DNA of 46,683 bases from Thermoanaerobaculia bacterium (GTDB lineage: Bacteria; Acidobacteriota; Thermoanaerobaculia; Gp7-AA8), in contig JBAQWH010000603.1 in NCBI GenBank assembly GCA_049298815.1, positions 1 to 46,683 on the forward strand. Reading direction: 5' to 3'. A model generated the notes under the pieces. The model was not told the origin of the DNA. It saw nothing but the letters and a program-made list of their open reading frames with translations, and did no database searches. The translations under genes and the position numbers were made by a program. This document shows, in pieces, positions 1-23,384 of the stretch. Numbering within the stretch: the stretch's first letter is position 1; each line of letters begins with the position of its first letter.

Positions 1-2
1 GG

Positions 3-407
3 CGAACCGTCATCCGCGACGCGGCGCCGGCAGGACCCGTCCGCGAGCCCGACCCGCTTGCCCGGGCTCTCATGGCGCGCTACAGCCACCACGTCCAGGA
101 GCGCCTCGGCGCCGTCTACCTCGATTCGCGCAACCGCATCCTGCGTGAGCGCGAGATCTACATCGGGACGGTGAACTCCGCGACGGTGTCGACACGAGAC
201 ATCCTTCGCCACGCGCTCGACGACCACGCCGCCGGCGTCATCGTCTTCCACAACCACCCCTCCGGCGATCCCGAGCCTTCGGCGGACGACCTCGTGTTCA
301 CGAGGAAGCTTGTCGAGGCCGGAAAGATCCTCGGCGTCACGATCGTCGACCACCTCATCCTCGGGTCCAACCGTTACGTCTCGCTCGAACAGCGGGGCAT
401 GCTGTGA
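3..407 (+). CDS. radC: RadC-like JAB/MPN domain protein, probably 5'-truncated by the window edge (internal ATG at 72)
   Basis: The translation carries the JAMM signature of the RadC family ('VIVFHNHPSGDPEPSADDLVFTRKLVEAGKILGVTIVDHLILG...RYVSLEQRG'). The frame stays open from nt 3 to the ATG at 72, and the residues upstream still look RadC-like. Confidence 0.85.
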   Translation, partial: RTVIRDAAPAGPVREPDPLARALMARYSHHVQERLGAVYLDSRNRILREREIYIGTVNSATVSTRDILRHALDDHAAGVIVFHNHPSGDPEPSADDLVFTRKLVEAGKILGVTIVDHLILGSNRYVSLEQRGML

Positions 408-413
408 CTTTCA

Positions 414-445
414 CGCGGGGCTGTTTGGCCCCGCGTTTCTTTATT
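414..445 (+). terminator. Rho-independent terminator after radC
   Basis: Hairpin CGCGGGGC-TGTTTG-GCCCCGCG (414-435) followed by TTTCTTTATT. It starts 7 nt after the TGA at 405-407. Confidence 0.7.
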
Positions 446-486
446 CATGGATCGGTTACCGGTGCAGTAGCCACCATCTACGCGTC

Positions 487-1905
487 TCACATGAAGTAGC
501 GGACGTGGTAGGGGTGCGGCGCGATCTGACCCACACGCTTCACGATGTCGGCAAGTGTATGGGCGAATCCGACAGTCACAGGCAAACGGTCGTACAGGGC
601 ATCGTTGTTCCAGTTCATTTTCGTCAGCCCCATGACGTAGCGCGCCGTGTCGACGAAATCACCATGGCCGGCGAATCGGCGCAGCAATATTGGGTGCGGA
701 ATGCCTTTACCTTCTTTGAAGTAGTTCGTGCCACCGGCAGCTTCTGGGGCATTCCCCTGTGTCCAGAGTAGACAATCGCGTCCGCCGAGCTGCAGCATCG
801 TCCCTCGGTCGCAGGGATATCCTGCCGGCATGTTCTTCCCTTCGATTTTCACGCCGATCCAGCCCGCGTCCTGTTGTATCTGGACGAGATCAAGTCCTGA
901 ATCCGAACTCCAAGCGTCGAAGCACCCCTCCACCTCGTCTGGCTTGAACTCCGTCGTCTTATGAACGACCAGGCGAACGGGGGTGCGTCCGGCGTGACGC
1001 TTCTGGTAGAGCGACAGACTTCGAGCAATGACGCGGCGCATGTCCGCCCGACTCAAAAAGGGATTGTCGCGTTCGACACGGACCTCGTCGGTCTCGTACG
1101 CCACGAACTCCAATCCAGCCCCGTCCGCGTCGAAGACCTGGCTGCAACATGTCACAAAGCGCCCGCCGCCCTGCTTCCGCAGGGCGTAGCTCAAGCCTAC
1201 GAACGCTACATCCTCGGCAGTTTCCGCCAGCTTCCACGGTACGCCGCCTGCCTTCACGTACAGAGCGATGCTCTGTCGCCACATGACACTGCACCGGCAC
1301 GGGTAGGCCAAGCCACGAGACTCACGGATCAATTGACATGGTAGGCCTCGCATTGCTGTGACCGCTTTGAGGTAGTCATGCAGATCAAAGTCGTCGCCTG
1401 GACCGCCAATGAACGCCGGAGCCCAACGATCAGGCAACGCGATCAACACCACGTCGAACTCGGTCCGCATCTGTTCGAGCGTGGCGAGCGCTTCGGTCAG
1501 CTTCTCCGCCAAGACAGCGTGCGGGTTTGCCGATGCCGAAATGGCCTGATCGACGTCCGCCGAGAGCCTGACATGCGCGCTCGCGGCAGCCTCCACGAGT
1601 CGAACACCGAACACGGTTGAGAACCCAGGGAAGGGAGGGAGGTACGCGAATCGTTCCCGGGGCTGATGCGCCTTCTGGAAGTCACGGAGGAACTGAGCCA
1701 CAGGGGCAGCCAGACTTGCGGGCGATATGGTCGCCACGCGGATCGGGTCGATGACACCTGCAAGGGCGGATCGTGAATACGGTCCGAACGCCAGCAGCCC
1801 CTTCAACGGGTGGACGTCCCGGTCTTCCGTTCGATCCGGATGGAATCGCAGGATGGGCTCTGCCAACCTGAGGTGCGGCACGAGCGTGGCAGGGTGTTTC
1901 GTCAT
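487..1905 (-). CDS. Short prokaryotic Argonaute (MID-PIWI only, predicted catalytically inactive)
   Basis: About 473 aa with no N/PAZ region. It has the Ago hallmark 'SIALYVKAGGVPWKL' and a MID pocket-like 'DLHDYLKA...CQLI'. The PIWI strand 'VAFVGLSYAL' lacks the catalytic Asp. The C-terminus is 'HPYHVRYFM'. The ATG at 1905 overlaps the upstream stop as ATGA (1902-1905). The longest ORF starts at TTG 1920. Confidence 0.88.
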   Translation of the reverse strand: MTKHPATLVPHLRLAEPILRFHPDRTEDRDVHPLKGLLAFGPYSRSALAGVIDPIRVATISPASLAAPVAQFLRDFQKAHQPRERFAYLPPFPGFSTVFGVRLVEAAASAHVRLSADVDQAISASANPHAVLAEKLTEALATLEQMRTEFDVVLIALPDRWAPAFIGGPGDDFDLHDYLKAVTAMRGLPCQLIRESRGLAYPCRCSVMWRQSIALYVKAGGVPWKLAETAEDVAFVGLSYALRKQGGGRFVTCCSQVFDADGAGLEFVAYETDEVRVERDNPFLSRADMRRVIARSLSLYQKRHAGRTPVRLVVHKTTEFKPDEVEGCFDAWSSDSGLDLVQIQQDAGWIGVKIEGKNMPAGYPCDRGTMLQLGGRDCLLWTQGNAPEAAGGTNYFKEGKGIPHPILLRRFAGHGDFVDTARYVMGLTKMNWNNDALYDRLPVTVGFAHTLADIVKRVGQIAPHPYHVRYFM

Positions 1906-3617
1906 GATTTCAGTCGCCAACTAAATGCAGAGACACGATTCAGAGTGAACGCCGCGTCGAGTCCGTCCCCAATACCAAATGCCGCCACGCGCAAGTCCTG
2001 CTCGCTCCCGAATAGGAGCGACAGCCAGGCGTCGAGCAGCCGCGAGTGCTTCGCGTTGTAGAGCTTCGCCGAAACCTCCCTCGCAAAGTCTTTGACGATC
2101 TGAGCGTCGCCGTCGTCGTTCGGGTGCTCTACGGTGAGTGTCGGTTCGAGCAACAGCCACACGCGCTCAAACCGCATGTCGAGTCGAATCTCGAGACTCG
2201 GCTCGCAACGGAGCGATGTTCTCGGGACGGTATCTCCGACTCCGAGGAGGGTTCGCAGGGCTCCTGCGCGAGCATCCGCATGCGGAAGCGTCAGCCGAAA
2301 CCGGCCACCACGCCGCGAGAGGTCGAGTTGTCGCGCGCGACCCAGCCCGCGAGCGAGAGCCTCGGAGAGCATCGACATTTCGATGGAGTCGTACGCGAGG
2401 CGACGCTTCTCAATCTGATGGACGTCGAACCGTGTGATGGTGAAAGGCTCAAACGTGCGGCGGACTTCGTCATCGCTGCCGAACGCGAGGACTCCAACGT
2501 TGCGTCGTCCACCCACGACGTTCGCATTCGCCGTCCGAATCGCTTCTTGGACATCGCGCTGCCCGCCGATATCACACACAACGAGCCGACATACTGACGG
2601 CAGCGAAGTGACGCCGAGTGCGTTCGTGCGCACGACGGGGTACGCACCCTGCCCCGAAGGGTGCGGGGCGAACGTCAGTCGTTCGGTCTTCTTCTCAATC
2701 TTCGCCGCAACATCATCCGGCACGGACGCGAACTGTCCCATGACGTCGCCGAGGAGTTCGTCGAACGTCTCAACCTCCACCTTGTGGGCGTCGATGCCCC
2801 GATCCGCGGCAGTAGCCAAAAGCGTGTCTACGCGCTCGAAGGTTATGCCGTCGGAGCGAACCATCCAGAACAGGCCGAACGGGAAGGCGCCCTTCTGCCG
2901 TGCCGCCTCCTCCAGGACGTCCATGATCGAATGATCACGGCCGCTATACCCGACGACGATCAATCCAAATCGCTTGGAGGCCTCACTGAGTGCGTGTCGC
3001 ATCGCCGCGTCCTGCGTACGCAGCTCTTCGGTCGTGTTCTTCAGTCGTTCTGACTGGAAGTCCCCGTGCAACTTGACCACCAATGGGAAGCTCTGATCGT
3101 TCAGAGCACGCAGTGCGACATCCGCGGATTCGATCGCCGCAACCGTGACCGCCGACGACCCGCCGAACATGTCGTACGCGGCATCTTCGACCACGCGGTC
3201 AAAGTTCGTCGTCCACACGACACGAGCCGCGTCCATGCGCATGAGCGCGGCGAGCCCCCGATGCCCGAAGGAGGGTCGCGCGCCTGTGAGCAAGCCACTT
3301 AGAGCCGTCCGTCGATCCTTCGCGTCGGGGTAGGCGAACTCGAAGAGTGATGCGTACTCATCGGCATCCCCCGCCTTCGGAAACCGGCCGGTTGCGTCCA
3401 AGTAACCTTGAATCCGCTGCCGAACCCCCGCATCGGCGAGGTCGCCGATTGCCGACAGCGACAACTTCTGCTCCGTCGCGTAGATCGAACGCTTGAAGGA
3501 CCACATCAGGTCGGTCGCCGTCGGGACGCGTGCGCCCGCTGACGCGCCAGCACCGAGGAACCACATAAGATTCTTCGATCGGAGCGGATAGACACGCAGG
3601 AACTCAGGAAGTCGCAT
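1902..3617 (-). CDS. SIR2-APAZ protein (NADase effector partner of short pAgo)
   Basis: SIR2 motifs 'FLGAGASAGARVPT', 'VWTTNFDRVVE', 'VVKLHGDF' and 'VVGYSGRD' occupy the N-terminal half. The C-terminal half is a ~300-aa non-SIR2 region. The gene is ATGA-coupled to the short pAgo downstream. Possible starts are ATG 3617 or GTG 3620, and both overlap the res stop at 3604-3606. Confidence 0.85.
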   Translation of the reverse strand: MRLPEFLRVYPLRSKNLMWFLGAGASAGARVPTATDLMWSFKRSIYATEQKLSLSAIGDLADAGVRQRIQGYLDATGRFPKAGDADEYASLFEFAYPDAKDRRTALSGLLTGARPSFGHRGLAALMRMDAARVVWTTNFDRVVEDAAYDMFGGSSAVTVAAIESADVALRALNDQSFPLVVKLHGDFQSERLKNTTEELRTQDAAMRHALSEASKRFGLIVVGYSGRDHSIMDVLEEAARQKGAFPFGLFWMVRSDGITFERVDTLLATAADRGIDAHKVEVETFDELLGDVMGQFASVPDDVAAKIEKKTERLTFAPHPSGQGAYPVVRTNALGVTSLPSVCRLVVCDIGGQRDVQEAIRTANANVVGGRRNVGVLAFGSDDEVRRTFEPFTITRFDVHQIEKRRLAYDSIEMSMLSEALARGLGRARQLDLSRRGGRFRLTLPHADARAGALRTLLGVGDTVPRTSLRCEPSLEIRLDMRFERVWLLLEPTLTVEHPNDDGDAQIVKDFAREVSAKLYNAKHSRLLDAWLSLLFGSEQDLRVAAFGIGDGLDAAFTLNRVSAFSWRLKS

Positions 3618-6330
3618 CACGAGAGCACGCCTGAGTTAGTGCCGCGAGTGTGGCGTTGCCATTCACCGCATCATGCGGGATGAGCAGGTAGCGCCAGGGC
3701 TTCCCGTCGATCGAGCCTTCGTGCTTCGAGGCACGCTCGCACCATGCGACGGCGGCCTTCGCCTTCGCCTCGACCTCAGGGTCGGTCATTTCGTTTGTCG
3801 CCTTGATCTCGCAGATGAGCTTCTCGTCGGCCGTCTCGACGACGAAGTCGGGGACGTACTCCTGGTCGCCGCGGCCGTAGCGGTAGAAGATCCGGAGGAT
3901 GCCGCTGCTCGGGCGGAACCACTTGTCGACGCTCTTCGTGTCTTCGAGGAGGACGGAGAAGCGGCGCTCCGTGTCGGAGTCGAACTTCGCGCTCTCGTAG
4001 AGCGCCTTCTGGAAGCCGGTGAAGAGCATCCCGCGGATGTACTGCTTGTCGTCGACGGGCGCGCGGAACGACCGCGGCGACTCCCCGGCGGGGAGCGAGA
4101 AGCTGCTCGGGCGGAGCGAGACAAAGCCCTTCGCGACCTTCACGTCGAGGTCGGACTGCGTTTCCCAGTAGTGCTCCTGCATCTGCGCGTGCACGAGCTC
4201 CGCGAGCGGGCGCTGGTAGTACTGGAGGACGTTCGTGACCTCGTCGTCATCCTTCAGATACGAGCGAAGGTGCGTGACGACCTGGCCGGCAAGCTTGTAG
4301 AGGAGTTCCGACTGGTCGTCATAGGAGATGTCGTCTTCCAGAACGAGTGGGCTCACGACGTAGTTCTCAAGACGAGGCTCCTGCGGTGCCATCCGTCCAG
4401 CGGTCAACGTGTCGCGCTTGTGGGTCTGCAGGTGTTGAATCAGGATGTCGTCATCCACCGGCTGGTACCTGAGGTTCGCGAGGTTCAGGTCGAAGTCCCG
4501 GAATCCGGAGGTGATCTCGCCCGTCGGTACGACGCTGATGCGCGGGATGTCGATCGTCTTCTCGGCACGTAGCGCCAGCGTCTTCTCCACGTCGGCCGCG
4601 ATGTCGGGCCTCTCCACGATGCCCTCGATGGTCTGCTGACCCGCGTTGTAGGCCTCAGTCACCTTCTGAATGATCTGCGCCTTGATCTCGGGTTTCTGAA
4701 GGTCACGCGAACTCGGCAGCCGTTCGAAGTCCTTCACGACGTCCATCGTGATCTTCGCCACCCGCTGCGATTCGATCGTCGGGAACGGGTGCTGCGCGGC
4801 GCCCTTGATGCCGAGTTGGGTCGCATTGGGTCTGTCTGCGATGACGCCCGTCTGGACGGACGGCGTGGGTGAGGGGCCGACGAGGACGTCAATCCACGGC
4901 TTCACCTCGACGCTCTGCTTCTTCTCGAGCGGAACGTGCGTCACGACGATGCCGCCACGAATCGCGGAGTCCGGCCGGTTCGCCTCGTCGACGATCTCCT
5001 GGAAGCGGTCGTGCGCGACGATGGTTAGGCGGTCGACGGCGGTGACCCCGACGCGCTTCGCGTACGGAAGCCGTAATCCCCGCCCGATCGACTGCTCGAC
5101 GAGCGTCTTCGAGTTCGCCGTGCGAAGCGGGACGATCGTGTAGAGGTTCGTGACGTCCCAGCCCTCCTTCAACATGTTCACGTGGATGACGATCTCGGTC
5201 TTTTCGTCCGGACTCTCGACCGCGAGGAGACTCGCGATGACCTCGTCCTTTTCCTCGCCCTTCTGGTTTGAGTGGACCGTGATGACCCGGTCGCGGTAGC
5301 GGCCCTCGAAGAACTGGTCCTCCTCGATGAGCTTCTGGAGCGCGTTCGCGTGCTCCGTGTCCTTCGCGACGACGAGCACGAACGGCTTCACGATTGGCTG
5401 GTCGTAGTTCCGCGCGTACGTTTCGAGCTCGACCTTCGTCGCCTCGTGGACGCGCACGCCGTCTTCGAGCTTCAGCCGTTCTAGCTGCTCGGGCGTATAC
5501 GCATCTGCGTTGAAGTTCTCGCGTGTCGCGACGGCCGGTTCTTTCACGAAGCCATCCGCAATCGCTTGCGAGAGCGGGTAGCTGTAGATGATGTTCTTGA
5601 ACGGGATCGGGGCCTTCGAGCCCTGCTCGACCTGCGGCGTCGCCGTCAGCTCGAGGCCGAGGATCGGCTTCAGCTCGTTCAGGACGCGGACGCCGGCCTC
5701 TGCGCGGTACCGGTGCGACTCGTCCATGATGAGCACGAGGTCGGGAAGGCCCGCGAGGTACTCGAAGTAGCTCGTCCCGATGTACTCCGCGAGCCGCTTG
5801 ATCTTCGGAGTCTTTCCGCCGCGCACCTCGGCGTTGATCTTCGAGATGTTGAAGATGTTGATGTGGACGTCGTCGAAGAGCGTCGTCTGGACCCGCGTCC
5901 CCTGACCCCGCTCGTAGTCATCGCCGGTGATGATGACCGGCGGGTTGTTCGCGAACTCCGAGATTCCGTTCAGCACGTACTTCGGATGTCCGGGCGTGAA
6001 GTCCCGAATGAGCTTGTTGTAGATCGTGAGGTTCGGCGCGAGGACGAAGAAGTGGCGGATGCCCTTCGTCTGGTAGAGATAAGCGATGAAGGCGCCCATG
6101 AGGCGCGTCTTGCCGACGCCCGTAGCGAGGGCAAAGCAGAGCGACGGGAACTCGCGCTCGAAGTCCTCGACCGACGGATACTCGGACCGGATGATGTCGA
6201 GCGCCGCCGTCACGTCCGTGTCCTTCGCCGGCGGAACGATCTCTGTCACCCGCGCTAGGATCTCGAGCGCGTCGCGCTGCGGCGGGCGGAGGCTCAGGCG
6301 ACCGCTGATGGAGTTCACGTGACGGTTCAT
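3604..6330 (-). CDS. res: Type III restriction enzyme Res subunit (SF2 helicase plus C-terminal nuclease)
   Basis: Helicase motifs 'LATGVGKTRLMG', 'LIMDESHRY', 'LELTATP' and 'GRGLRL', plus a C-terminal PD-(D/E)xK-like 'YVPDFVVE...LICEIKA'. ATG 6330 overlaps the mod stop (ATGA 6327-6330). The 53 extra N-terminal codons in the ORF track lie inside mod and are Arg/Gly-rich. Confidence 0.85.
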   Translation of the reverse strand: MNRHVNSISGRLSLRPPQRDALEILARVTEIVPPAKDTDVTAALDIIRSEYPSVEDFEREFPSLCFALATGVGKTRLMGAFIAYLYQTKGIRHFFVLAPNLTIYNKLIRDFTPGHPKYVLNGISEFANNPPVIITGDDYERGQGTRVQTTLFDDVHINIFNISKINAEVRGGKTPKIKRLAEYIGTSYFEYLAGLPDLVLIMDESHRYRAEAGVRVLNELKPILGLELTATPQVEQGSKAPIPFKNIIYSYPLSQAIADGFVKEPAVATRENFNADAYTPEQLERLKLEDGVRVHEATKVELETYARNYDQPIVKPFVLVVAKDTEHANALQKLIEEDQFFEGRYRDRVITVHSNQKGEEKDEVIASLLAVESPDEKTEIVIHVNMLKEGWDVTNLYTIVPLRTANSKTLVEQSIGRGLRLPYAKRVGVTAVDRLTIVAHDRFQEIVDEANRPDSAIRGGIVVTHVPLEKKQSVEVKPWIDVLVGPSPTPSVQTGVIADRPNATQLGIKGAAQHPFPTIESQRVAKITMDVVKDFERLPSSRDLQKPEIKAQIIQKVTEAYNAGQQTIEGIVERPDIAADVEKTLALRAEKTIDIPRISVVPTGEITSGFRDFDLNLANLRYQPVDDDILIQHLQTHKRDTLTAGRMAPQEPRLENYVVSPLVLEDDISYDDQSELLYKLAGQVVTHLRSYLKDDDEVTNVLQYYQRPLAELVHAQMQEHYWETQSDLDVKVAKGFVSLRPSSFSLPAGESPRSFRAPVDDKQYIRGMLFTGFQKALYESAKFDSDTERRFSVLLEDTKSVDKWFRPSSGILRIFYRYGRGDQEYVPDFVVETADEKLICEIKATNEMTDPEVEAKAKAAVAWCERASKHEGSIDGKPWRYLLIPHDAVNGNATLAALTQACSRDATS

Positions 6331-8009
6331 TTCGTGGGGGCGATATCGAAGAGCGAGAGGGAGTCCTCCGTCGCGCTCTTCTTCGCCTTTCCTTTCGCGG
6401 ATTTCGCGGGAGGCTCGTCGTCTGCCACGCCGAGGTCCGCCGCCGCGGGAAGATTCTTGATCTGGAGGCTGTAGTCGTCGCGGCCCCACTCGCAGCGCGA
6501 GAGCACCGCGTGCGGGATCTTCTTGATCGTGAGGTTGGCGAAGGCGTCGGGTTTCGCGCGGAAGGCGGCGCAGCAGACGAGGAGCGTCCGCCCCTCGCCG
6601 ACTTCATCGCTCAGGGACTGAAGCTGATCGCGCGTGAGCTTCTGCGTCGTGACGTAGATGAAGTCGCGTTCCGTGGAGTAGCCCTGCTGCCAGTAGATGT
6701 CCGTCGGCGCGTACGTGAAGCCTTCGAGCTTGCAGACGGCCTCGGCGAGCATGTCGGCGTTGTAGCCCTTGTTGATGACCGGGTTGCCCCACTTGTCCTT
6801 CTCGATGAGGGACGAAGCGAGCTTGAAGTAGCGGAAGCCGCCTCCGCCCTTCCAATCGACGGCTTCGGTAATGCCTCCTGCATCGGTACCGTCGACGACC
6901 TTACGAAGGCGCGGAACAATGTGCGTCTTCGCGTGCTCGCCGAGTTCCACCATGATCCAGCGGCGGCCCATTTTGTGAGCAACGGCCCCCGTGGTCCCAG
7001 ATCCCGCGAACGAGTCCAGAACAATGTCACCTGGATCAGATGCGATGTGGATGATCCGCTGAAGCAGACGCTCAGGCTTCGGCGTAGAGAAGATGTCATC
7101 CCGACCAAAGATGCGGGTCACTTCTTGCTTAGCTTCTCGATTGTTCCCAACTTCCTCGTGCGACCAGACAGTAGTGGGCACCAATTCGCCCAACTCGGAA
7201 CGGAAACGCTTTCTGAAGGGAAAGGTCTTTCCAGTCTTTCCCCACCAGAGCCGGTTGTCGGCCGCAAGACCATAGAATGTCTCTCTTGAGATGCTCCACC
7301 ACCGGTTCGCACGAGGAGCGAACACGTCACCATGCGGTCCGGTGACCTCATATTTGCCGTCGGCGTACGACTTCGAAGCCGTTAGATCCGAGCGCCGCCA
7401 ATCCCCTCGTGGGTCAGAATCAGGATTCCAGAAGTCGGCATCGCTTGCTTCCGTCCGCCCAACCTTGTTGCGGCGCCAGCTCTCAATCTCTTTCGCATAC
7501 ACAAGAATGAAGTCGTGATCGGCAGAGAAAAACTGAGCGGAGTTGTTACGGGCGTGCAGCTTCTGCCAAATGACGGTCGCAACGAAGTTTCGGCGTCCAA
7601 ACACCTCGTCCAGGAGCACCTTCAGGTAGTGCCCTTCATTGTCATCGATATTGATCCAAATGCTTCCGTCATTGCGCAGTGTGCGACGAAGCAGTTCGAG
7701 GCGGTCCCGCATCAAGGACAGCCAAAGCGAATGCTCGATTCCGTCGTCATAGTGTTCAAACGCTGAGCCGGTGTTGTACGGCGGATCAATGTACACACAC
7801 CTCACTTTGCCAGTGAACTCCTGCTCCAAAGCCTTCAGAGCGAGTAGGTTGTCCCCGAAGATGAGACGGTTGTCGAAGATGTCGTTAGGTCCGACTCGAT
7901 GCGCGGCGTGGTACGACAGCTCAGGATCTTCCAACAGGATGCGCGGCTCGAGACGAGGCCGCTGATCCTTTCCGATCCACTGCAGTTCGAGTTTCTGATT
8001 CCTGGCCAT
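6327..8009 (-). CDS. mod: Type III DNA methyltransferase Mod (beta-class N6-adenine/N4-cytosine MTase)
   Basis: Motif IV 'VYIDPPYNTG' precedes motif I 'VLDSFAGSGTTG'. The N-terminus 'MARNQKLELQWIGK' is typical of Type III Mod. An AAGGA Shine-Dalgarno lies 5 nt upstream of ATG 8009. Confidence 0.9.
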   Translation of the reverse strand: MARNQKLELQWIGKDQRPRLEPRILLEDPELSYHAAHRVGPNDIFDNRLIFGDNLLALKALEQEFTGKVRCVYIDPPYNTGSAFEHYDDGIEHSLWLSLMRDRLELLRRTLRNDGSIWINIDDNEGHYLKVLLDEVFGRRNFVATVIWQKLHARNNSAQFFSADHDFILVYAKEIESWRRNKVGRTEASDADFWNPDSDPRGDWRRSDLTASKSYADGKYEVTGPHGDVFAPRANRWWSISRETFYGLAADNRLWWGKTGKTFPFRKRFRSELGELVPTTVWSHEEVGNNREAKQEVTRIFGRDDIFSTPKPERLLQRIIHIASDPGDIVLDSFAGSGTTGAVAHKMGRRWIMVELGEHAKTHIVPRLRKVVDGTDAGGITEAVDWKGGGGFRYFKLASSLIEKDKWGNPVINKGYNADMLAEAVCKLEGFTYAPTDIYWQQGYSTERDFIYVTTQKLTRDQLQSLSDEVGEGRTLLVCCAAFRAKPDAFANLTIKKIPHAVLSRCEWGRDDYSLQIKNLPAAADLGVADDEPPAKSAKGKAKKSATEDSLSLFDIAPTK

Positions 8010-8065
8010 TCAGTCCTTACAAGTAGGGCGTTCCGTCAGCGAAAACTGTACAGGCTTTGCGAGGC

Positions 8066-10888
8066 TCATGCGAGCGTCCAGCGCACCGTGAAGAGCTCTC
8101 TCGTCGAAACGCGCTGCTGGAGCTGCCGCTCGATCTCGCCGATGAGGGTGTCGCGCTTCTCGTCGATCGTGTCCTGGGCGTCGAAGAGCTCCGCCCGCTT
8201 TTTCTTCTTCTTCCCATCGAGTTCCTTCAGCTTCTTCTGGCCGGCGAGCTTCTCTGCGAGCGTGCCGCTCCCCGCCGTCGCCCGGCGGATGTCGCGGATC
8301 TCCCGATCCAGTTCCTTCAGCTCCTGCTCAAGGCCGAACTTCAGGTCCTCGGCCCACAGTTCGAGCTTCGCGACCTCTTCGTCGAAGTGCTTCGCATTCC
8401 GCGACTCAACGGACGCGACGTGCTCAGCGACGCGCGCCTTCGTCGCGTCGTCGAGCGCGCCAGTCGGCGTCGCGGCGGAGGCGTCCCCGCCGACCTTCGC
8501 GTCGAGTGCGAAGAGCTTGCGCGCGAGGTCCTCGTCGAGAAGCAGTCCGTCGTCGCTCGCGGCGATGACGTCGAGCCGGTCCTCCGCTTCGAGCGAGGTG
8601 ATCGTCGTCTTCACGACGCGCAGCCATCCGCTCTTCCCGATGAACGGCTCAAGCGCGCTGATCTTCGCGCCGTAGCCCGAGAGGTCGAACCGGACGTGCG
8701 CTAACGGAAGGTTGCGCTCCGCAGCGCGCTCAATGAGGGTCCTCGCGAGCGGATGATCCGCGCGGTAGAAGATCTCGTTCGCCGCCTCGGCACTCTTCCA
8801 GTCGAAGTTGTACGTTCCCGCAGGGGCGATTGCGCCGCGGTAGCGGAAGCGATTGCCGTCCCACTCGGCGTCGCCGTCGAGCTCCGCGTGCGTGAGGTCG
8901 CGGAGCAGTTCCTGGTGCGCGGTGAGCGCACGTTCCGACTCCGCCATCCGGAGCCTGATCCGCGCGTGGACGTCGACGTCGAAGTTCTCGAGGAGGTTCT
9001 TCCGCGTCTCGTCCATCCTCGACGCGATCTGTTCGTCGAGTTCGGCCTGGATCTTGTCGAACGCCGTCTGGATCTCCTCGGCGGTGCGGCACTCCTGGTA
9101 CACCTGTGCGATGCGCCGCTCGATGTCGACGCCGGATTCCAGTGCGCCGAGGACCTCGTCGCTCGCGCCGAACACGCCGTCGAAGAGCTTGAACTTCTCC
9201 GCGAGGAGCTTGTAGACGCGCTGATCCGCTTCGTTGCGCTTGTTCAAAAAGTTCACGACGACGACGTCGTGCTTCTGGCCGTAGCGGTGGCAGCGGCCGA
9301 TGCGCTGCTCGATGCGCTGCGGGTTCCACGGGAGGTCGTAGTTCACGACCAGGGAGCAGAACTGGAGGTTCACGCCTTCGGCCGCCGACTCCGTCGCGAT
9401 GAGGAGCGTCGCGCGGTCGCGGAACTCCTCGACGATCGCGGCCTTCGTGTCGGCCGACTTCGAGCCGGAGATGAGGTCGGAGTTCGCGTGCCGCTGCTTC
9501 CATGCTTCGTAGATCGCACGGGAGCCGGGGTCCGTGTTCGTCCCGTTCATGAGGACGATCTCTCCGGCGTAGCCCTGCTTGCCGAGGAAGTCCTGCAGGT
9601 ACGCCTGCGTGCGGCGGGACTCCGTGAAGATCACGGCCTTCCGCGGCGCGCCGAGGTCCGCGGCCTTCCGGAACGCGGCGTCGAGGGCTTTCAGGAGCGC
9701 GTCACCCTTCGCGTTGTGGTGGATCTCCTCGGCGAGCGCGGCGTACGTCCGGAGCTCCCCGAGCTCCTGCTTCAGTGATGCGCGATCGATCACGAGCTCG
9801 TCGCCGTTCTCGTTCTCCGTCCACTCGTCCTCGAGTTCCTTGATCGCCTCGAAGTCTTCCTCGTCGAACGGTCGGATCTCCTTCTCCATCGCTTCGAGCC
9901 GCTTGATGAGGCTCCGTAGCGTCCCGGCGATCGCGAAGGTCGACGACGCGAGGAGCCGGCGGAGGATGAGCGTCATGAGCGTGCGCTGGCTCGCGGGGAG
10001 CGCATGGAGCACCTCGCGCTGGAGGTACGCCGAGACCTGCTCGTAGAGCTGGTGTTCCTTCTCGGACGGCAAGAACTCCTGCGTGATCGGGACGCGCTGC
10101 GTGAAGCGGATGTACTCGAGGACCTGCCTGCGGAGTGTCCGGCGACAGAGCTGCGTGAGCCGCCGCTTCAGCTCCGTGTTCCGCGCGACTTCGTCGTTCC
10201 CGCGGAGGAACTGCTCGCGAAAGGAGATCGGGTCGCCGAACACGTGCTCGTCGATGACGGAGACCAGGCCGTAGAGCTCCATGAGGGAGTTCTGGAGCGG
10301 TGTCGCGGTGAGGAGCACCGTCGGCCGCCCCTTGATCGCCCCGACGATCGCGTTCGCCATCTTGTTCTGGGGCTTGTAGACGTTCCGGAGGCGGTGCGCC
10401 TCGTCGATGACGACGAGGTCCCAATCGACCTGCCTCACTTCTTTCGCTTTGGCAGAAACGAAGTGATACGAGGCGATCACGATCCGGCCGAGAAGATCGA
10501 ACGGATTTCCCGGCCAGAGTTTTCTCGCCGCATTGAAGTTCGCGGATTCGAGGATCGTCGTCGGGATCGAGAACTTCTCCTCGATCTCCTGCTGCCACTG
10601 CTTCCGGAGCGTCGCTGGGACGATGAGGAGGATCTTCCGCTTCCGCTCGGCCCACCGCTGCGCGATGACGATCCCCGCCTCGATCGTCTTCCCGAGGCCG
10701 ACCTCGTCGGCGAGGAGGACGCCCTTCGTGAAGGGCGAGCGGACGGCGAAGAGCGCCGCGTCGACCTGGTGCGGGTTCAGGTCGACCCGGGCGTTCGCCA
10801 TCGAGCGCGAGAGGTTCTCGACCGTCCCGGGAGGGCCTTGCAGGGTCAGGGCATGCGCCCAGTAGGCGCTATGGAAGGGGGTCTTCAT
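8066..10888 (-). CDS. SNF2-family helicase with a long coiled-coil C-terminal extension
   Basis: Motifs 'LLADEVGLGKTIEAG' (I), 'LVVIDEAHRLRN' (II), 'LLTATPLQNS' (III) and 'GVNLQ...YDLPWNPQRIEQRIGRCHRYGQK' (V-VI). There is a ~330-aa C-terminal extension ending in a Lys/Glu-rich coiled coil. Confidence 0.88.
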   Translation of the reverse strand: MKTPFHSAYWAHALTLQGPPGTVENLSRSMANARVDLNPHQVDAALFAVRSPFTKGVLLADEVGLGKTIEAGIVIAQRWAERKRKILLIVPATLRKQWQQEIEEKFSIPTTILESANFNAARKLWPGNPFDLLGRIVIASYHFVSAKAKEVRQVDWDLVVIDEAHRLRNVYKPQNKMANAIVGAIKGRPTVLLTATPLQNSLMELYGLVSVIDEHVFGDPISFREQFLRGNDEVARNTELKRRLTQLCRRTLRRQVLEYIRFTQRVPITQEFLPSEKEHQLYEQVSAYLQREVLHALPASQRTLMTLILRRLLASSTFAIAGTLRSLIKRLEAMEKEIRPFDEEDFEAIKELEDEWTENENGDELVIDRASLKQELGELRTYAALAEEIHHNAKGDALLKALDAAFRKAADLGAPRKAVIFTESRRTQAYLQDFLGKQGYAGEIVLMNGTNTDPGSRAIYEAWKQRHANSDLISGSKSADTKAAIVEEFRDRATLLIATESAAEGVNLQFCSLVVNYDLPWNPQRIEQRIGRCHRYGQKHDVVVVNFLNKRNEADQRVYKLLAEKFKLFDGVFGASDEVLGALESGVDIERRIAQVYQECRTAEEIQTAFDKIQAELDEQIASRMDETRKNLLENFDVDVHARIRLRMAESERALTAHQELLRDLTHAELDGDAEWDGNRFRYRGAIAPAGTYNFDWKSAEAANEIFYRADHPLARTLIERAAERNLPLAHVRFDLSGYGAKISALEPFIGKSGWLRVVKTTITSLEAEDRLDVIAASDDGLLLDEDLARKLFALDAKVGGDASAATPTGALDDATKARVAEHVASVESRNAKHFDEEVAKLELWAEDLKFGLEQELKELDREIRDIRRATAGSGTLAEKLAGQKKLKELDGKKKKKRAELFDAQDTIDEKRDTLIGEIERQLQQRVSTRELFTVRWTLA

Positions 10889-11028
10889 GTCTGTGGTTGT
10901 CGGGCGACCGCGCCGAGCTACCTTGAGAGAATGCCCTGAATCGCGTCGGGACGCCAGACGGAGACGTATGGGCGCGTCGACAGCGCGCCCGGGCGTGTGG
11001 TTCTCTTGAACGGAACCCTGCCTTCGCC

Positions 11029-12507
11029 ATGACTCCCACCGACCTCGCGAACTACGTCCGCTGCCCCCACCGCGTCTTCCTGGACAAGCACGGGGATCCG
11101 GCCGCGAAACTGCCTCCGAACGCCTTTACGGAGCTCCTGTGGGCCGGAGGGCTGTCCCACGAAGCGACCATCATCGACGGCCTCGAGGTCGCGACCGTGG
11201 ACACGACTCTGTCGTATCCGGAACGGGCCGCCGCGACGCACGCGCTCATGGCGCAAGGCGTCGCCGCGATCTACCACGGGATCCTCATCCTCGACGACCT
11301 GCGCGGCGAACCGGATCTCCTCGTGCGCTCCGACCGGCTCGTCACGGAGTTCGGGGCGTACGGCTACAACCCGGTCGACGTGAAGAACGGGAAGGCATTC
11401 TCAGACGCGAAGAAGTCGAAACCGAAGGCACCGTATGCAATGCAGCTCTGCGCGTACGCCGAGATGCTCCAGTTCGTGCAGGGCTGCCGACCGCCCATCG
11501 GGCAGATCATCGATGCCGACGGTGTGTGGAACTCGTACGACCTCGACGCCTTCTGGCCGGAGTACGAGCGGCTGCGCGATGAAGCGGTGGCGACGATCAA
11601 GAGGACGAAGACGACGGAGCCGGGCTGGCAGGCGGCGTGTGCGTCGTGCGCGTGGCAGCAGCACTGCTGGGCGCAGCTCGTCGCGACGGACGACCTCACG
11701 ACCGTCGACGGCGTCGGCGCGAGCTACAAGGAGCGTCTCTACACGATCGGGGTGCGGACGGCGAGCGAGCTTGCCGCGGCCGACCCAGAGACGCTCGTCG
11801 GGGTGAAGGGCATCAAGCTCGCGCGGGCGCAGGTCTGGACGCGAAAGGCGCGCGTGCAGAAGAGCGGGAGTCCCCTCTTCCTCCAAACGTGGACGCCGCC
11901 GGACGTCGACTTCGAGGTGTCGTACGACATCGAGGACTACTCGCTCGATCCGTACGTCTACCTCCACGGACTCCTCGTCCGACCGCGTGGCGCACGCCTC
12001 TTCGGGAGCGACGCCCACACGGACGCGGACTTCGGCACCTTCGAGCCCGTCTGCGCGACGTGGCCCGAGACGGAGGAGGCGGTGTGGAACGCGTTCCTCG
12101 CCAAGGTCGCCGACATCGACGCCCGGGGAACATACGTCGTCTACGTCTACTCGCACCACGAACGGACGACGTTGAAGCGCCTCGCCGCAAAGTACGGAAC
12201 CTCGGACGCACTCGACCGGTTCGTGAAGGCGTTCGTCGATCTCGAGCGCGTCATGAAGCGATCCGTCGTGATGCCCACCGACAGTTCGTCCTTAAAGGCG
12301 TACGCACGGTTCGCCGGCTTCAACTGGCGCGACGAGGATCCCGGCGGCTCGCAGAGCCTCGCGTGGTGGAACGCGTACTGGACGGACGCCGCCGCGAAGG
12401 CAGAGCTACGCGAACGCGTGATCCGCTACAACGAAGACGACGTCCGCGCAAGCTTCGTCGTGCGGGACTGGCTCGCGCGAACCAGCACTGCGTCAGGTTC
12501 GACTTAG
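11029..12507 (+). CDS. TM0106-family RecB/Cas4-like nuclease with a C-terminal RNase H-like exonuclease domain
   Basis: The N-terminus is 'DLANYVRCPHRVFLD'. The PD-(D/E)xK-like core is 'EPDLLVR...YNPVDVKNGK'. Cys12 plus 'CASCAWQQHC' resemble a Cas4-type Fe-S cluster. The C-terminal 'YDIEDYS...YVYSHHERT...YNEDDV' resembles a DEDD exonuclease. Confidence 0.7.
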   Translation: MTPTDLANYVRCPHRVFLDKHGDPAAKLPPNAFTELLWAGGLSHEATIIDGLEVATVDTTLSYPERAAATHALMAQGVAAIYHGILILDDLRGEPDLLVRSDRLVTEFGAYGYNPVDVKNGKAFSDAKKSKPKAPYAMQLCAYAEMLQFVQGCRPPIGQIIDADGVWNSYDLDAFWPEYERLRDEAVATIKRTKTTEPGWQAACASCAWQQHCWAQLVATDDLTTVDGVGASYKERLYTIGVRTASELAAADPETLVGVKGIKLARAQVWTRKARVQKSGSPLFLQTWTPPDVDFEVSYDIEDYSLDPYVYLHGLLVRPRGARLFGSDAHTDADFGTFEPVCATWPETEEAVWNAFLAKVADIDARGTYVVYVYSHHERTTLKRLAAKYGTSDALDRFVKAFVDLERVMKRSVVMPTDSSSLKAYARFAGFNWRDEDPGGSQSLAWWNAYWTDAAAKAELRERVIRYNEDDVRASFVVRDWLARTSTASGST

Positions 12508-14820: not shown

Positions 14821-15687
14821 CTACGCGGAGGCGGCGCGGAGGAGACGCTCGAGGATGACGCCCTTGAGGCTCGCCGGATCCGCCTTCGGCAGCAATACGC
14901 GGATCGCCGCGCGGCCGAGTTCCTCCTTGAGACGCGCAGCCGCTTCGTCGCCCGACGAGTCGTGATCGAAGAGGATGCAGACCCGCGAGAAGCGACTGAG
15001 GAGCGCGCGCTGCGCTGCGGTGATCCGGCAGCCGAGCGATGCAACCACATGCGGAAAGCCGACCTGGAACACGCCGAGCGCGTCGAAGATGCCTTCGACG
15101 AGGATGACGGTCTCCGCGCCGGAAGCCTTCACCCGGTGCAGGTTGAAGAGGAGCTCACGACGGCGAACGCCGCGCTGGAAGCAGTAGCGGGGTTCGACGG
15201 CGTCATCGACGGCACGGCCGATGTGGCCGACGAGGGTGCCGTCTGGAGCGTGGAGCGGCGCGATGATCCGTCCGCCGAGCGGAGGCCGGCCGCGGAAGTA
15301 GCCGAGTCCGAAGTGCCGCGCCGTCGCCTCGTGGATCCCCCGCTCGAGGAAGTACGGATGCGTGGGATCGAGCGGCGTGAGCGGGACGACCGGCCCAATG
15401 CGTTCGGGACGTTCGTGGGCAGTTGGGCGGACGACGTCGAGCGGATCCTCTCCACGCATCCGCGCGACGAACTCCTCGATGCTCCCGCCCTCCCCGCACG
15501 CGAAGCAGAAGAAGCCGCGACCGGGGGTGAGCGCGAACGAGGAGACCCGCGTTCCGTGATGGAGCGGGCATGGCCCGCGCCACTGCGAGCCGTGCCAGGT
15601 GAGGTCGAGGCGGAACTCCTCGATGAGGTTCTCCCATGCTTCACGCGTCACGGGAGTCTCCGATGCCGACAAACCTCCGACGGTCAT
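14821..15687 (-). CDS. DnaG-like primase-related protein (CHC2 zinc finger plus TOPRIM)
   Basis: CHC2 finger 'CPLHHGTRVSSFALTPGRGFFCFACGEGG'. TOPRIM Glu in 'VILVEGIFDAL' and DxD in 'ILFDHDSSGDEAA'. The start is ATG 15687, with alternatives GTG 15651 and the track start 15735. All of them overlap the end of the upstream ATPase gene. Confidence 0.75.
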   Translation of the reverse strand: MTVGGLSASETPVTREAWENLIEEFRLDLTWHGSQWRGPCPLHHGTRVSSFALTPGRGFFCFACGEGGSIEEFVARMRGEDPLDVVRPTAHERPERIGPVVPLTPLDPTHPYFLERGIHEATARHFGLGYFRGRPPLGGRIIAPLHAPDGTLVGHIGRAVDDAVEPRYCFQRGVRRRELLFNLHRVKASGAETVILVEGIFDALGVFQVGFPHVVASLGCRITAAQRALLSRFSRVCILFDHDSSGDEAAARLKEELGRAAIRVLLPKADPASLKGVILERLLRAASA

Positions 15688-20446: not shown

Positions 20447-20482
20447 GGGCCGTCTCCGGATGCTTCGGTCTGCGCCGCGAGA

Positions 20483-23307: not shown

Positions 23308-23384
<77 letters not shown>

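What the first reader, a model, noticed from the sequence alone, without database searches (positions are those of the whole stretch)
487..10888. R-M and Argonaute systems fused into one overlap-coupled five-gene array (SNF2-Mod-Res-SIR2-APAZ-pAgo)
Seen in the sequence: all five genes are on the minus strand with almost no intergenic space.
- SNF2 to mod: a 56-nt gap with a Shine-Dalgarno.
- mod to res: ATGA overlap at 6327-6330.
- res to SIR2-APAZ: the SIR2-APAZ start (3617 or 3620) lies 14-17 nt inside res.
- SIR2-APAZ to pAgo: ATGA overlap at 1902-1905.

I found no hairpin terminator between res and SIR2-APAZ. The first convincing hairpin is at 414-445.

Inference: a restriction-type system and an abortive-infection Argonaute appear to be transcribed, and partly translated, as one unit rather than merely sitting side by side. 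This suggests co-regulated layered immunity or a functional dependency. As far as I know, SPARSA is normally described as a stand-alone two-gene operon.
Basis: partly seen in the sequence, partly recalled or inferred. Interest (0 to 1): 0.75.

Follow-up and report, generated by a model that had tools for sequence, protein, structure and literature searches.

The report
Argonaute cassette plugged into restriction operon
A two-gene Argonaute suicide-defence module (SPARSA) sits, with no promoter space of its own, in a swappable cargo slot at the end of a three-gene restriction-modification operon on a mobile island; this is a new example of the known habit of defence genes nesting inside restriction operons, not evidence that the two systems need each other.

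Summary

- The closest relatives of the backbone (res 86-91% identical) keep SNF2-mod-res and the convergent radC. Between res and radC they carry other cargo: Abi_C, a 511-aa unknown or a 238-aa unknown.
- DNA homology to these relatives breaks about 35-60 nt before the res stop (window ~3640-3660) and resumes at the radC terminator hairpin (413-436).
- The cassette has GC3 0.72 against 0.90 for the backbone.

SPARSA is therefore a foreign, promoterless cargo cassette in a variable slot.

The linkage is still not a one-off.
- The nearest SPARSA relative (73% identity) has the same res tail and the same 14-nt overlap.
- The next nearest follows a different MTase/ResIII pair.
- Four other close-clade contexts place SPARSA directly after hsdM of a Type I system, with hsdS following pAgo in three.
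- About 15% of 74 species-level SPARSA loci follow an R-M gene directly.

The most likely reading is co-transcribed but mechanistically independent layers, as described for "embedded" defences (Payne et al. 2024). Co-transcription and any dependency remain untested.

The parts
10889..11028 (-). 5' intergenic region between SNF2 and the divergent RNase_H_2/HHH_5 gene. It is the presumed promoter region of the array.
   Evidence: Sequence. DNA homology to L006 and L007 runs through it. No sigma-70-like match was found, so the promoter is inferred, not shown.
8066..10888 (-). SNF2-family helicase (940 aa), DrmD-like. It is the first gene of the conserved SNF2-mod-res triad.
   Evidence: Pfam SNF2-rel_dom 1.7e-36 and Helicase_C. 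PADLOC DrmD 1.2e-211. NCBIfam DrmD_b 712 bits, below the 950 cutoff. GLGKT at residue 64 and DEAH at residue 162. Present upstream of mod in 30 of 34 related loci.
8010..8065 (-). 56-nt spacer with the Shine-Dalgarno-like AAGGA before the mod ATG.
   Evidence: The spacing is conserved at 58-62 nt in L005-L007.
6327..8009 (-). Type III Mod adenine methyltransferase (560 aa). Its stop overlaps the res start (ATGA 6327-6330).
   Evidence: N6_N4_Mtase 7.7e-48. MTase_III 1.1e-220. DPPY at residue 75 precedes FAGSG at residue 334. Junction. The central region (~7100-7550) has no DNA homology to L005 or L007, which suggests a swapped target-recognition domain.
3604..6330 (-). Type III Res helicase-nuclease (908 aa). 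Its last ~12-20 codons belong to the cargo cassette.
   Evidence: ResIII 1.9e-20 and Helicase_C. REase_III 3.9e-226. PD...EIK motif at residues 827-843. Relatives at 91% and 86% identity. Tail comparison.
1902..3617 (-). SIR2-APAZ (571 aa). Its start (ATG 3617, or GTG 3620) lies 14-17 nt inside res.
   Evidence: SIR2_2 2.5e-15. Aga_SIR2-PNTD 8.4e-168. PDB GsSir2 6.8e-75, with TTNFD, HGD, GYSGRD and TFDE aligned. These positions are invariant across 22 homologues.
487..1905 (-). Short pAgo (472 aa, MID-PIWI). Its start overlaps the SIR2-APAZ stop (ATGA 1902-1905).
   Evidence: pAgo_I 3.1e-185. PDB 8in8_C 3.7e-113 over the full length. Junction.
437..3650 (.). Variable cargo cassette: the res tail, SIR2-APAZ, pAgo and a 50-nt spacer. 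It is bounded by conserved backbone on both sides.
   Evidence: blastn breakpoints are at 3663 / 3647 / 3638 on one side and 436-438 on the other, against L006, L005 and L007. Homology to L001 spans 3768-489. GC3 is 0.72 against 0.90 for the backbone, p = 1e-8.
413..436 (+). G+C-rich hairpin followed by a T-run on the + strand. It is the terminator of the convergent radC gene and marks the right edge of the cargo slot. It may also stop the array's transcript.
   Evidence: Conserved in L006 and L007.
1..407 (+). radC (JAB domain), convergent with the array and part of the conserved backbone. Its 5' end lies outside the window.
   Evidence: RadC 1.4e-38. It is in the same position in L006 and L007.
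23308..23384 (-). tRNA-Met, the likely integration site and boundary of the mobile island that carries the array.
   Evidence: Island genes (primase, Replic_Relax, OLD nuclease) lie at 14821-22881. Housekeeping genes lie beyond 24.5 kb.

Best explanation
The array has two parts. The first is a conserved three-gene core: a DrmD-like SNF2 helicase, Type III Mod and Type III Res. The second is a horizontally swapped two-gene SPARSA cassette in a variable cargo slot directly after res. The whole array sits on a tRNA-Met-linked mobile island in an Acidobacteriota-like genome.

Shown here:
- The gene identities and the junctions.
- Conservation of the triad.
- The cassette boundaries, alternative cargo in the same slot, and the foreign composition of the cassette.
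- A conserved res|SIR2 junction in one diverged relative.
- Recurrent placement of related SPARSA pairs inside or after R-M operons.

Inferred:
- The cassette has no promoter of its own and is transcribed by read-through from the operon promoter upstream of SNF2.
- Translation is coupled at the ATGA junctions and at the 14-nt overlap, by termination and re-initiation.
- The two systems act as independent layers. The R-M core methylates self DNA and cuts unmodified invaders. SPARSA (an RNA-guided pAgo/SIR2-APAZ heterodimer) senses invader DNA that escapes, hydrolyses NAD+ and aborts the infection.
- Linkage benefits the cassette through hitch-hiking and shared expression, and gives the host backup defence. 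The two systems have no biochemical need for each other.
For: Gene identities. Junctions.

Variable slot:
- The closest res relatives (91%, 86%, 86%) share SNF2-mod-res, and L006 and L007 share the convergent radC. After res they carry Abi_C (L005), a 511-aa unknown (L006) or a 238-aa unknown (L007), with gaps of 3-9 nt.
- blastn homology stops at window 3638-3663 and resumes at 436-438, exactly at the conserved hairpin.
- GC3 is 0.90 for res and SNF2 against 0.72 for SPARSA (p = 1e-8). Cargo in L005-L007 also has lower GC3 than its backbone.

Wider res family:
- In 80 further loci, 25 have a co-directional gene within 100 nt after res. These include GmrSD x3, TIR, JetA-like and a RecD-like helicase.
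- Genes are also embedded between SNF2 and mod and between mod and res: AIPR, OLD, RhuM, YhcG and Schlafen.

Catalytic equipment is intact:
- SIR2 NFD, H and Y aligned with GsSir2 F143/D144/H186/Y226.
- Mod DPPY and FxGxG; Res PD..ExK.

No terminator-like site lies at the res/SIR2 junction.

The general phenomenon and the co-regulation idea are published (Payne et al. 2024; TgvAB).
Against: - No transcription data exist. The promoter scan found nothing anywhere, including upstream of SNF2, so it cannot exclude an internal promoter in the 3' end of res.
- The res|SIR2 overlap is conserved between two loci whose SPARSA proteins are only 73% identical.
- 7 of 11 contexts in the close SPARSA clade have an R-M gene directly upstream. 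This is more persistent than random hitch-hiking might predict and leaves room for a functional link.
- The cargo sits after the last gene rather than between genes, so it is 'appended' rather than strictly 'embedded'.
Confidence: 0.65

Rival explanations
1. Guardian model (PrrC-like). SPARSA in this clade is functionally wired to the R-M complex. It could be held inactive by Res/Mod and released when a phage inhibits restriction. Alternatively it could be fed by ssDNA or ends produced by the Res/SNF2 translocases. Under this model the tight coupling reflects a required stoichiometry or interaction.
For: - The junction, including the res tail, is conserved in L001.
- The close SPARSA clade is repeatedly placed directly after unrelated R-M genes, with overlapping or near-overlapping starts: Type III res, another MTase/ResIII pair, and Type I hsdM. 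This looks like independent capture into R-M operons.
- About 15% of 74 species-level loci follow an R-M gene.
- There is precedent in PrrC/EcoprrI.
Against: - The same backbone works with other cargo or with none.
- None of 80 further res relatives has SPARSA next to res.
- Many SPARSA loci have no R-M neighbour.
- The R-M partners are of unrelated types, which makes a specific protein-protein interaction unlikely.
- GsSir2/Ago is characterised as a stand-alone operon and is activated in vitro by guide RNA plus target DNA alone.
Confidence: 0.12
2. Adjacent but separately transcribed. A promoter embedded in the conserved 3' end of res (or weak read-through plus such a promoter) drives whatever cargo sits in the slot. 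R-M and SPARSA would then be neighbours in a defence island, not one transcription unit.
For: - All cargo types share the same conserved upstream res sequence to within ~35-60 nt of the stop. An internal, slot-serving promoter is therefore conceivable, much as an integron Pc promoter serves its cassettes.
- The scan's failure to find the presumably real promoter upstream of SNF2 shows it is insensitive in this genome.
Against: - There is no promoter-like match in 1-11300.
- There is no terminator-like site at the junction.
- The start codon lies inside res with at best a weak SD, which favours coupling to upstream translation.
- In relatives, the SIR2-APAZ start also overlaps the stop of whatever gene precedes it.
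Confidence: 0.18
3. The arrangement is an annotation or assembly artefact, or a decayed remnant: a chimeric contig or pseudogenised SPARSA.
For: There is a sharp GC3 step at the junction.
Against: - The same junction is found in an independent assembly, L001.
- All five ORFs are full length relative to homologues, and the catalytic motifs are intact.
- Homology to the backbone resumes on the far side of the cassette.
Confidence: 0.02

Closest known systems
SPARSA (short pAgo + SIR2-APAZ), e.g. Geobacter sulfurreducens GsSir2/Ago (PDB 8IN8, 8JKZ)
   Same: - Two genes, SIR2-APAZ first, with overlapping stop and start.
- Full-length sequence matches: 6.8e-75 and 3.7e-113.
- The NAD+-site residues equivalent to F143, D144, H186, Y226 and F287 are conserved.
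   Different: - There is no upstream intergenic region. The start codon lies inside a Type III res gene, and the cassette occupies a cargo slot of an R-M operon.
- The residue aligned with GsAgo N184 appears to be R. This is a hand count and was not verified.
Type III restriction-modification (Mod + Res, EcoP15I-like organisation)
   Same: - mod precedes res, with an ATGA overlap.
- Mod has DPPY before FxGxG, with a variable middle region.
- Res has an SF2 helicase followed by a C-terminal PD..ExK nuclease.
   Different: - A DrmD-like SNF2 helicase gene is conserved immediately upstream, in 30 of 34 related loci.
- The family frequently carries extra genes between and after its own genes.
Defence systems genetically embedded in multi-gene defence operons (Payne et al. 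2024 bioRxiv 10.1101/2024.01.29.577857; PrrC in EcoprrI; TgvAB in the V. cholerae Type I R-M, PMC11411939; BrxU in BREX)
   Same: - A second, self-sufficient defence module is nested in the same orientation in a modification-based system.
- Cargo differs between otherwise identical hosts.
- Cargo types found here (GmrSD, OLD/ABC ATPases) match those reported.
   Different: - The host system is a SNF2-associated Type III R-M, which is not among the four surveyed (Hma, BREX, DISARM, Type I).
- The cargo is SPARSA. Searches for Argonaute/pAgo/SIR2 found no listing as embedded cargo in that paper's text or its 11 supplementary files.
- In the window the cargo follows the last gene rather than lying between genes.
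DISARM class 1 (DrmD, DrmMI, DrmA, DrmB, DrmC)
   Same: An SNF2 helicase of the DrmD family lies next to an adenine methyltransferase.
   Different: - No DrmA, DrmB (DUF1998) or DrmC (PLD) was found among the predicted genes of the window that were scanned.
- The SNF2 scores below both DrmD equivalog cutoffs.
- The nuclease partner is a Type III Res.
Variable cargo hotspots flanked by conserved core genes on mobile elements (integron cassettes; defence hotspots of P2/P4-like elements and ICEs). This comparison rests on my own knowledge.
   Same: - Conserved flanks (res, and radC with its hairpin) surround unrelated, compositionally foreign cargo.
- The cargo is apparently promoterless.
   Different: No integrase-linked attC-like site or other recombination signal was found at the cassette edges. 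Exchange is more simply explained by homologous recombination in the flanks.

Membership tests
SPARSA (short pAgo / SIR2-APAZ) | Short pAgo of about 470 aa containing only MID and PIWI | tested here: met
   472 aa. PADLOC pAgo_I 3.1e-185 over 7-472. Aligns end to end with GsAgo 8in8_C, 3.7e-113.
SPARSA (short pAgo / SIR2-APAZ) | Partner protein with N-terminal SIR2 and C-terminal APAZ, encoded immediately upstream in the same operon | tested here: met
   571 aa. SIR2_2 at residues 134-260. Aga_SIR2-PNTD1-PNTD2 8.4e-168 over the full length. GsSir2 6.8e-75 over residues 5-539. ATGA overlap with pAgo.
SPARSA (short pAgo / SIR2-APAZ) | Intact SIR2 NAD+-binding and catalytic residues | tested here: met
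   N138-F139-D140, H184, Y224 and F285 are invariant in 22 homologues. They align with GsSir2 F143, D144, H186, Y226 and F287.
SPARSA (short pAgo / SIR2-APAZ) | PIWI lacking the DEDX catalytic tetrad; MID 5'-phosphate pocket | not tested
   Individual residues were not mapped rigorously. Only the overall alignment to GsAgo was made.
SPARSA (short pAgo / SIR2-APAZ) | Guide-RNA/target-DNA-activated NADase causing abortive infection | not testable with these tools
   Needs biochemistry and phage assays.
Type III restriction-modification | Mod: beta-class N6-adenine MTase (DPPY before FxGxG) with a central specificity region | tested here: met
   N6_N4_Mtase 7.7e-48. MTase_III 1.1e-220. DPPY at residue 75 and FAGSG at residue 334. 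The central region is swapped relative to L005 and L007.
Type III restriction-modification | Res: SF2 helicase ATPase plus a C-terminal PD-(D/E)xK nuclease, encoded directly after mod | tested here: met
   ResIII and Helicase_C. REase_III 3.9e-226. PDFVV...EIK at residues 827-843. ATGA overlap. A Walker A motif was not found by my simple regex.
Type III restriction-modification | Hemi-methylation of an asymmetric site and ATP-dependent cleavage | not testable with these tools
   Needs methylome and enzyme assays.
DISARM | Core genes drmA (helicase), drmB (DUF1998) and drmC (PLD) together with drmD and a methylase | tested here: not met
   Only a DrmD-like SNF2 is present. It scores 712 bits against the 950 cutoff and 243 bits against the 610 cutoff. 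No DUF1998 or PLD protein was found among the predicted genes of the window that were scanned.
Hma (helicase, methylase, ATPase) | HmaA, HmaB and HmaC trio | tested here: not met
   The SNF2 hits HmaA only weakly (2.3e-51, against DrmD 1e-211). mod and res best match the Type III models. No HmaC was found.
Genetically embedded defence (Payne et al. 2024) | Cargo lies between genes of a multi-gene defence system, in the same orientation | tested here: inconclusive
   The orientation is the same, but in the window the cargo follows the last gene (res) and is bounded by radC. Strict embedding is seen for related SPARSA pairs in Type I loci: L004, L088 and L170 (hsdM | SPARSA | hsdS) and L121 and L150 (hsdS | SPARSA ... 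hsdR). L174 has hsdM upstream, but its downstream gene is unidentified.
PrrC-type R-M guardian | Effector is kept latent by the R-M complex and is triggered by anti-restriction proteins | not testable with these tools
   Only the genetic linkage could be examined. The variable cargo and unrelated R-M partners argue against a specific interaction.

The most novel reading that the evidence does not exclude
This SPARSA clade may be a specialised, promoterless hitch-hiker of restriction operons whose activity is functionally tied to its host R-M system. Two versions are possible: a PrrC-like guardian that fires when Res/Mod (or HsdMSR) is inhibited by phage anti-restriction proteins, or a sensor fed by ssDNA or DNA ends produced by the Res/SNF2 translocases. 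That would explain three things: why its start codon repeatedly overlaps the stop codon of unrelated R-M genes (Type III res, hsdM); why the res tail travels with it; and why 7 of 11 close-clade contexts have an R-M gene directly upstream.
Probability: 0.12. Interest if true: 0.8.

Novelty: new member of a known kind. Interest (0 to 1): 0.38.

Why it matters
If the array is one transcript, it is a compact natural example of layered immunity: restriction first, NAD+-depleting suicide second. Both layers would be expressed from one promoter and move as one unit on a mobile island.

The comparative result is more useful than the single locus.
- The slot after res, and the gaps inside this SNF2-mod-res family, collect defence genes. 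Several of these have no known family, for example L006 (511 aa), L007 (238 aa), L012 (732 aa), L060 (513 aa) and L070 (947 aa). They are candidates for new defences by 'guilt by embedding'.
- One SPARSA clade turns out to be habitually embedded in Type I and Type III R-M operons. That makes a PrrC-style guardian relationship for an Argonaute system directly testable.

The finding does not change how SPARSA or Type III R-M are thought to work.

Tried and rejected
- **Promoter scan.** No sigma-70-like site was found anywhere in 1-11300, including upstream of SNF2. The negative result says nothing about an internal promoter.
- **Terminator scan.** Ten sites were found against 7.5 expected, all inside coding sequence and none at the junctions. 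There is no evidence for a break, but the test is weak.
- **RNA folding of the three overlap junctions and of the L001 junction.** z-scores were -0.44, +1.66, +0.60 and -0.75. There is no significant start-sequestering structure. A 7-8 bp stem around the SIR2 start in the window is only partly kept in L001.
- **Rfam on the whole window.** Only the tRNA was found.
- **DISARM and Hma membership.** Both were rejected because partner genes are missing and scores are below cutoff.
- **PADLOC and Pfam on alternative cargo proteins.** L006 511 aa, L007 238 aa, L012, L060 and L070 remain unidentified.
- **Plasmid collection search with SIR2-APAZ.** It gave only 5 distant hits and was not followed up.
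- **Search of the Payne et al. text and supplements for pAgo, SIR2 or Type III.** No embedded Argonaute or Type III host was found.
- **Literature search for a described SNF2 + Type III Mod/Res triad.** Nothing specific was found.
- **Recombination signal at the cassette ends.** No shared motif was seen beyond the backbone hairpin.
- **Artefact or chimeric contig.** Rejected because L001 independently shows the same junction.

Full report

Yes. The ORF list shows five long minus-strand ORFs. Family searches identify them firmly:
- 487-1905: short pAgo (PADLOC pAgo_I 3e-185; full-length match to the Geobacter SPARSA Argonaute 8in8_C, 3.7e-113).
- 1902-3617: SIR2-APAZ (Pfam SIR2_2; PADLOC 8e-168; GsSir2 6.8e-75).
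- 3604-6330: Type III Res (ResIII and Helicase_C; REase_III 4e-226).
- 6327-8009: Type III Mod (N6_N4_Mtase 8e-48; MTase_III 1e-220).
- 8066-10888: SNF2 helicase of the DrmD family (PADLOC 1e-211; NCBIfam DrmD_b 712 bits, below its 950 cutoff).

Reading the junctions directly confirms each detail:
- ATGA at 1902-1905 and at 6327-6330.
- The res stop TGA at 3604-3606, with GTG 3620 / ATG 3617 of SIR2-APAZ upstream of it.
- A 56-nt spacer with AAGGA before mod.

The early SIR2-APAZ start is real. Homologues are 571 aa at 99-100% coverage, and residues 6-13 are conserved across 22 sequences. The public gene call of 520 aa is too short.

There is one correction. The hairpin is at 413-436 and carries its T-run on the + strand, so it is the terminator of the convergent radC gene. 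Stop/start overlaps are ordinary operon grammar and are not improbable in themselves.

**2. What is it? The backbone and the slot.**

res has much closer relatives in public data (91%, 86%, 86%... identity, from Acidobacteriota and Thermoanaerobaculia MAGs) than SIR2-APAZ does (73%, then 63% and below).

The three closest res loci share the gene order SNF2 (about 940 aa), mod, res. In L007 (and as a remnant in L006) a divergent RNase_H_2/HHH_5 gene lies upstream. In L006 and L007 a convergent radC lies downstream. Between res and radC, or the next gene, they carry other cargo:
- Abi_C (L005), 9 nt after res.
- A 511-aa unknown (L006), 7 nt after res.
- A 238-aa unknown (L007), 3 nt after res.

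blastn makes the boundaries explicit.
- Window 11126-3663 aligns with L006 at 81%. Homology then vanishes and resumes at window 436-7.
- The breakpoints against L005 and L007 are at 3647 and at 3638/438.
- The right edge coincides with the hairpin, which is conserved in L006 and L007 while the sequence before it is not.

So a cassette of about 3.2 kb (window ~437-3650) is the variable part. It comprises the last 12-20 codons of res, SIR2-APAZ, pAgo and a 50-nt spacer.

Composition agrees. GC3 is 0.91 (SNF2) and 0.88 (res) but 0.73 and 0.71 for the SPARSA genes. In 150-nt windows the means are 0.90 and 0.72, Mann-Whitney p = 1e-8. The alternative cargo genes in L005-L007 are likewise poorer in GC3 than their backbones.

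The surrounding 1-23.3 kb has the character of a tRNA-associated mobile island:
- Primase, a Replic_Relax protein and an OLD-family nuclease.
- tRNA-Met at 23308-23384.
- Housekeeping genes beyond it.

**3. Is the res-SPARSA linkage a one-off?**

No, but it is rare within the res family and recurrent within the SPARSA clade.

*Within the res family.* A metagenome scan with res returned 80 loci at 55-73% identity. None has SIR2-APAZ or pAgo next to res.

The SNF2-mod-res triad itself is conserved: SNF2 lies upstream of mod in 30 of 34 loci with enough sequence. The triad is strikingly prone to carrying extra genes.
- After res, 25 loci have a co-directional ORF of at least 100 aa within 100 nt. 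Those scanned include GmrSD (three times, once with a 4-nt overlap), a TIR protein, a DUF3375/JetA-like gene followed by two more genes, a RecD-like helicase, several unknowns and some housekeeping genes.
- Between SNF2 and mod, 26 of 32 loci carry inserts. Those scanned include AIPR, OLD-type ATPase-TOPRIM, an ABC ATPase and a Schlafen/AlbA_2 protein.
- Between mod and res, 34 of 73 loci carry inserts. Those scanned include RhuM and YhcG/DUF1016.

*Within the SPARSA clade.*
- The nearest relative (L001; SIR2-APAZ 73% and pAgo 83% identical) is preceded by a homologous res C-terminus and by the same 14-nt overlap (CTCTCGTGATG...CTGAGTT).
- The res tails of the window and L001 (...SRDATS*...SRDEIS*) resemble each other. 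They differ from those of L005-L007 (...RYxRxxA...*). The tail therefore travels with the cassette.
- The next relative (L173, 63%) follows a different methyltransferase plus ResIII/SWI2_SNF2 protein that is only 25% identical to the window's Res.
- L004, L088, L170/171 and L174 (57-59%) place SPARSA directly after hsdM of a Type I system, with its start overlapping or close to the hsdM stop. In L004, L088 and L170/171 hsdS follows pAgo. Further along come DarT/DarG or a Schlafen ATPase, and hsdR in L170.
- The other contexts are a Peptidase_S24 gene (L168), Z1 plus DUF3800 (L172), DUF4238 genes on both sides (L169) and unknowns (L002/3).
- In total, 7 of 11 distinct contexts in the close clade have an R-M gene directly upstream.

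*Species-level survey.* In 80 species-representative genomes (39-59% identity), 74 loci had enough upstream sequence. Of these, 48 had a co-directional neighbour within 300 nt. Those neighbours included 6 HsdR, 2 HsdM, 2 HsdS and 1 N6_N4 methyltransferase. That is about 15% of all loci. Downstream neighbours included HsdS x2, HsdR x2 (with YgjP), DarT x2 and Mrr.

**4. How does it most likely work?**

*Shown:*
- All parts look functional. Mod has DPPY and FxGxG. Res has a C-terminal PD..ExK. SNF2 has GLGKT and DEAH.
- The SIR2 residues equivalent to GsSir2 F143, D144, H186, Y226 and F287, which the structural study found essential (PMC10781750), are invariant.

*Inferred:*
- The cassette has no room for a promoter, and its start codon lies inside res with at best a weak Shine-Dalgarno sequence.
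- It is therefore most simply expressed by read-through from the promoter upstream of SNF2. Translation would be coupled at the ATGA sites and by re-initiation a few nucleotides upstream of the res stop.
- The SNF2-Type III core would provide modification-based restriction.
- SPARSA would act as an independent second layer, through RNA-guided detection of invader DNA, NAD+ hydrolysis and abortive infection. This is established for the Geobacter homologue.

I give this reading a confidence of about 0.65.

*Rivals:*
- **PrrC-like guardian or another functional dependency (about 0.12).** The conserved junction and the repeated capture by unrelated R-M operons favour it. The swappable cargo, the unrelated partners and the self-sufficiency of characterised SPARSA count against it.
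- **Separate transcription from a promoter inside the res 3' end (about 0.18).** I cannot exclude this, because the promoter scan found nothing even where a promoter must exist.
- **RNA structure at the junctions.** Folding gave no significant structures.

**5. Comparison with what is known.**

- The SPARSA genes pass every membership test I could run.
- Mod and Res fit Type III.
- The locus is not DISARM (no DrmA, DrmB or DrmC) and not Hma.
- The overall arrangement belongs to the published phenomenon of defence genes nested in modification-based systems. Examples are PrrC in EcoprrI, TgvAB in a Vibrio Type I system and BrxU in BREX. Payne et al. 2024 surveyed Hma, BREX, DISARM and Type I R-M. 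They report 96.7% same-orientation embedding and propose co-regulation and backup defence.
- Ryazansky et al. 2018 had already listed Type III restriction-endonuclease-like, methyltransferase and HsdS orthogroups in pAgo 'operons'.
- I found no explicit description of SPARSA as embedded cargo, or of a SNF2-associated Type III system as a host. The library does not cover subscription journals.

**6. Verdict.**

The array is best described as a SPARSA cassette in the variable cargo slot of a SNF2-Type III R-M operon. It is a new member of a known kind. The interest is moderate (0.38) and lies mainly in two comparative results:
- An embedding-prone SNF2-mod-res family whose unidentified cargo genes are candidate new defences.
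- A SPARSA clade that habitually lives inside R-M operons, which makes a guardian-type link testable.

Noticed in passing
window 8066-10888 with 6327-8009 and 3604-6330; loci L005-L087: A DrmD-like SNF2 helicase is conserved upstream of this Type III mod/res family, in 30 of 34 loci with enough sequence. I found no description of this SNF2-Mod-Res triad as a named system. It frequently carries inserted genes between its own genes: AIPR, OLD-type nuclease, ABC ATPase, Schlafen/AlbA_2, RhuM and YhcG.
   Followed up: partly
L006 12741-14276; L007 12728-13444; L012 9983-12181; L060 12747-14288; L070 3195-6038: Proteins of 511, 238, 732, 513 and 947 aa are tightly appended after res and have no Pfam or PADLOC match. 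They occupy the same slot as SPARSA, Abi_C, GmrSD and TIR elsewhere, so they are candidate new defence genes.
   Followed up: partly
L004 7989-16344; L088 7995-15217; L170 731-12012; L174 4314-9977: In L004, L088 and L170, SPARSA sits between hsdM and hsdS of Type I R-M systems, with its start overlapping or close to the hsdM stop. DarT/DarG (L004, L088) or a Schlafen-type ATPase and then hsdR (L170) follow. L174 has hsdM directly upstream, but its downstream gene is cut off and unidentified. These are three to four defence modules in one co-directional string.
   Followed up: partly
window 7100-7550 (within mod): The central part of mod has no DNA homology to L005 or L007 but is conserved with L006. 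The N-terminal two thirds of mod has low GC3 (0.62-0.70) compared with its C-terminus (0.84-0.93). This is consistent with exchange of the target-recognition domain.
   Followed up: partly
window 20905-22881 (+): An OLD-family nuclease (AAA_15 ATPase plus OLD-like TOPRIM, 658 aa) lies on the same island. It is a further probable defence gene with low GC3 (0.74).
   Followed up: no
window 23308-23384 (-), and 14821-18565: tRNA-Met marks the likely island boundary. The island carries a CHC2/Toprim primase and a 974-aa protein with a Replic_Relax domain. Similar genes flank the triad in L006 and L007, and L007 also has an integrase.
   Followed up: partly
window 11029-12507 (+): A 492-aa protein with HHH_5 and RNase_H_2 domains (weak DUF2779 match) is transcribed divergently from the array. 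It is conserved in that position in L007 (64% identity) and, more distantly, in L047. Its function is unknown.
   Followed up: no
L108, L109, L115, L142, L146, L158 (and, with slightly different sizes, L102 and L124), about 7770-9890: A recurrent pair of genes (about 423 aa and 278 aa) lies directly upstream of SPARSA, about 100 nt away, mostly in alphaproteobacterial genomes. The 278-aa protein had no Pfam family.
   Followed up: no
L033 19757-20629: A distant pAgo-like match (28% identity to the window's pAgo) lies about 7 kb downstream of a related res gene. It is the only Argonaute-like hit among the 80 res loci.
   Followed up: no
window 1902-3617: The public protein collection holds the window's SIR2-APAZ as a 520-aa product (P0001). 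That call uses a downstream start, apparently to avoid the overlap with res. Homologues support the 571-aa form.
   Followed up: yes
window 36630-37304 (-); 24504-29870 (-); 39856-44919 (-): Outside the island there is an IS200-like Y1 transposase gene among the housekeeping genes, and two very large secreted-type proteins (1788 aa with FG-GAP/DUF11 repeats, and 1687 aa).
   Followed up: no
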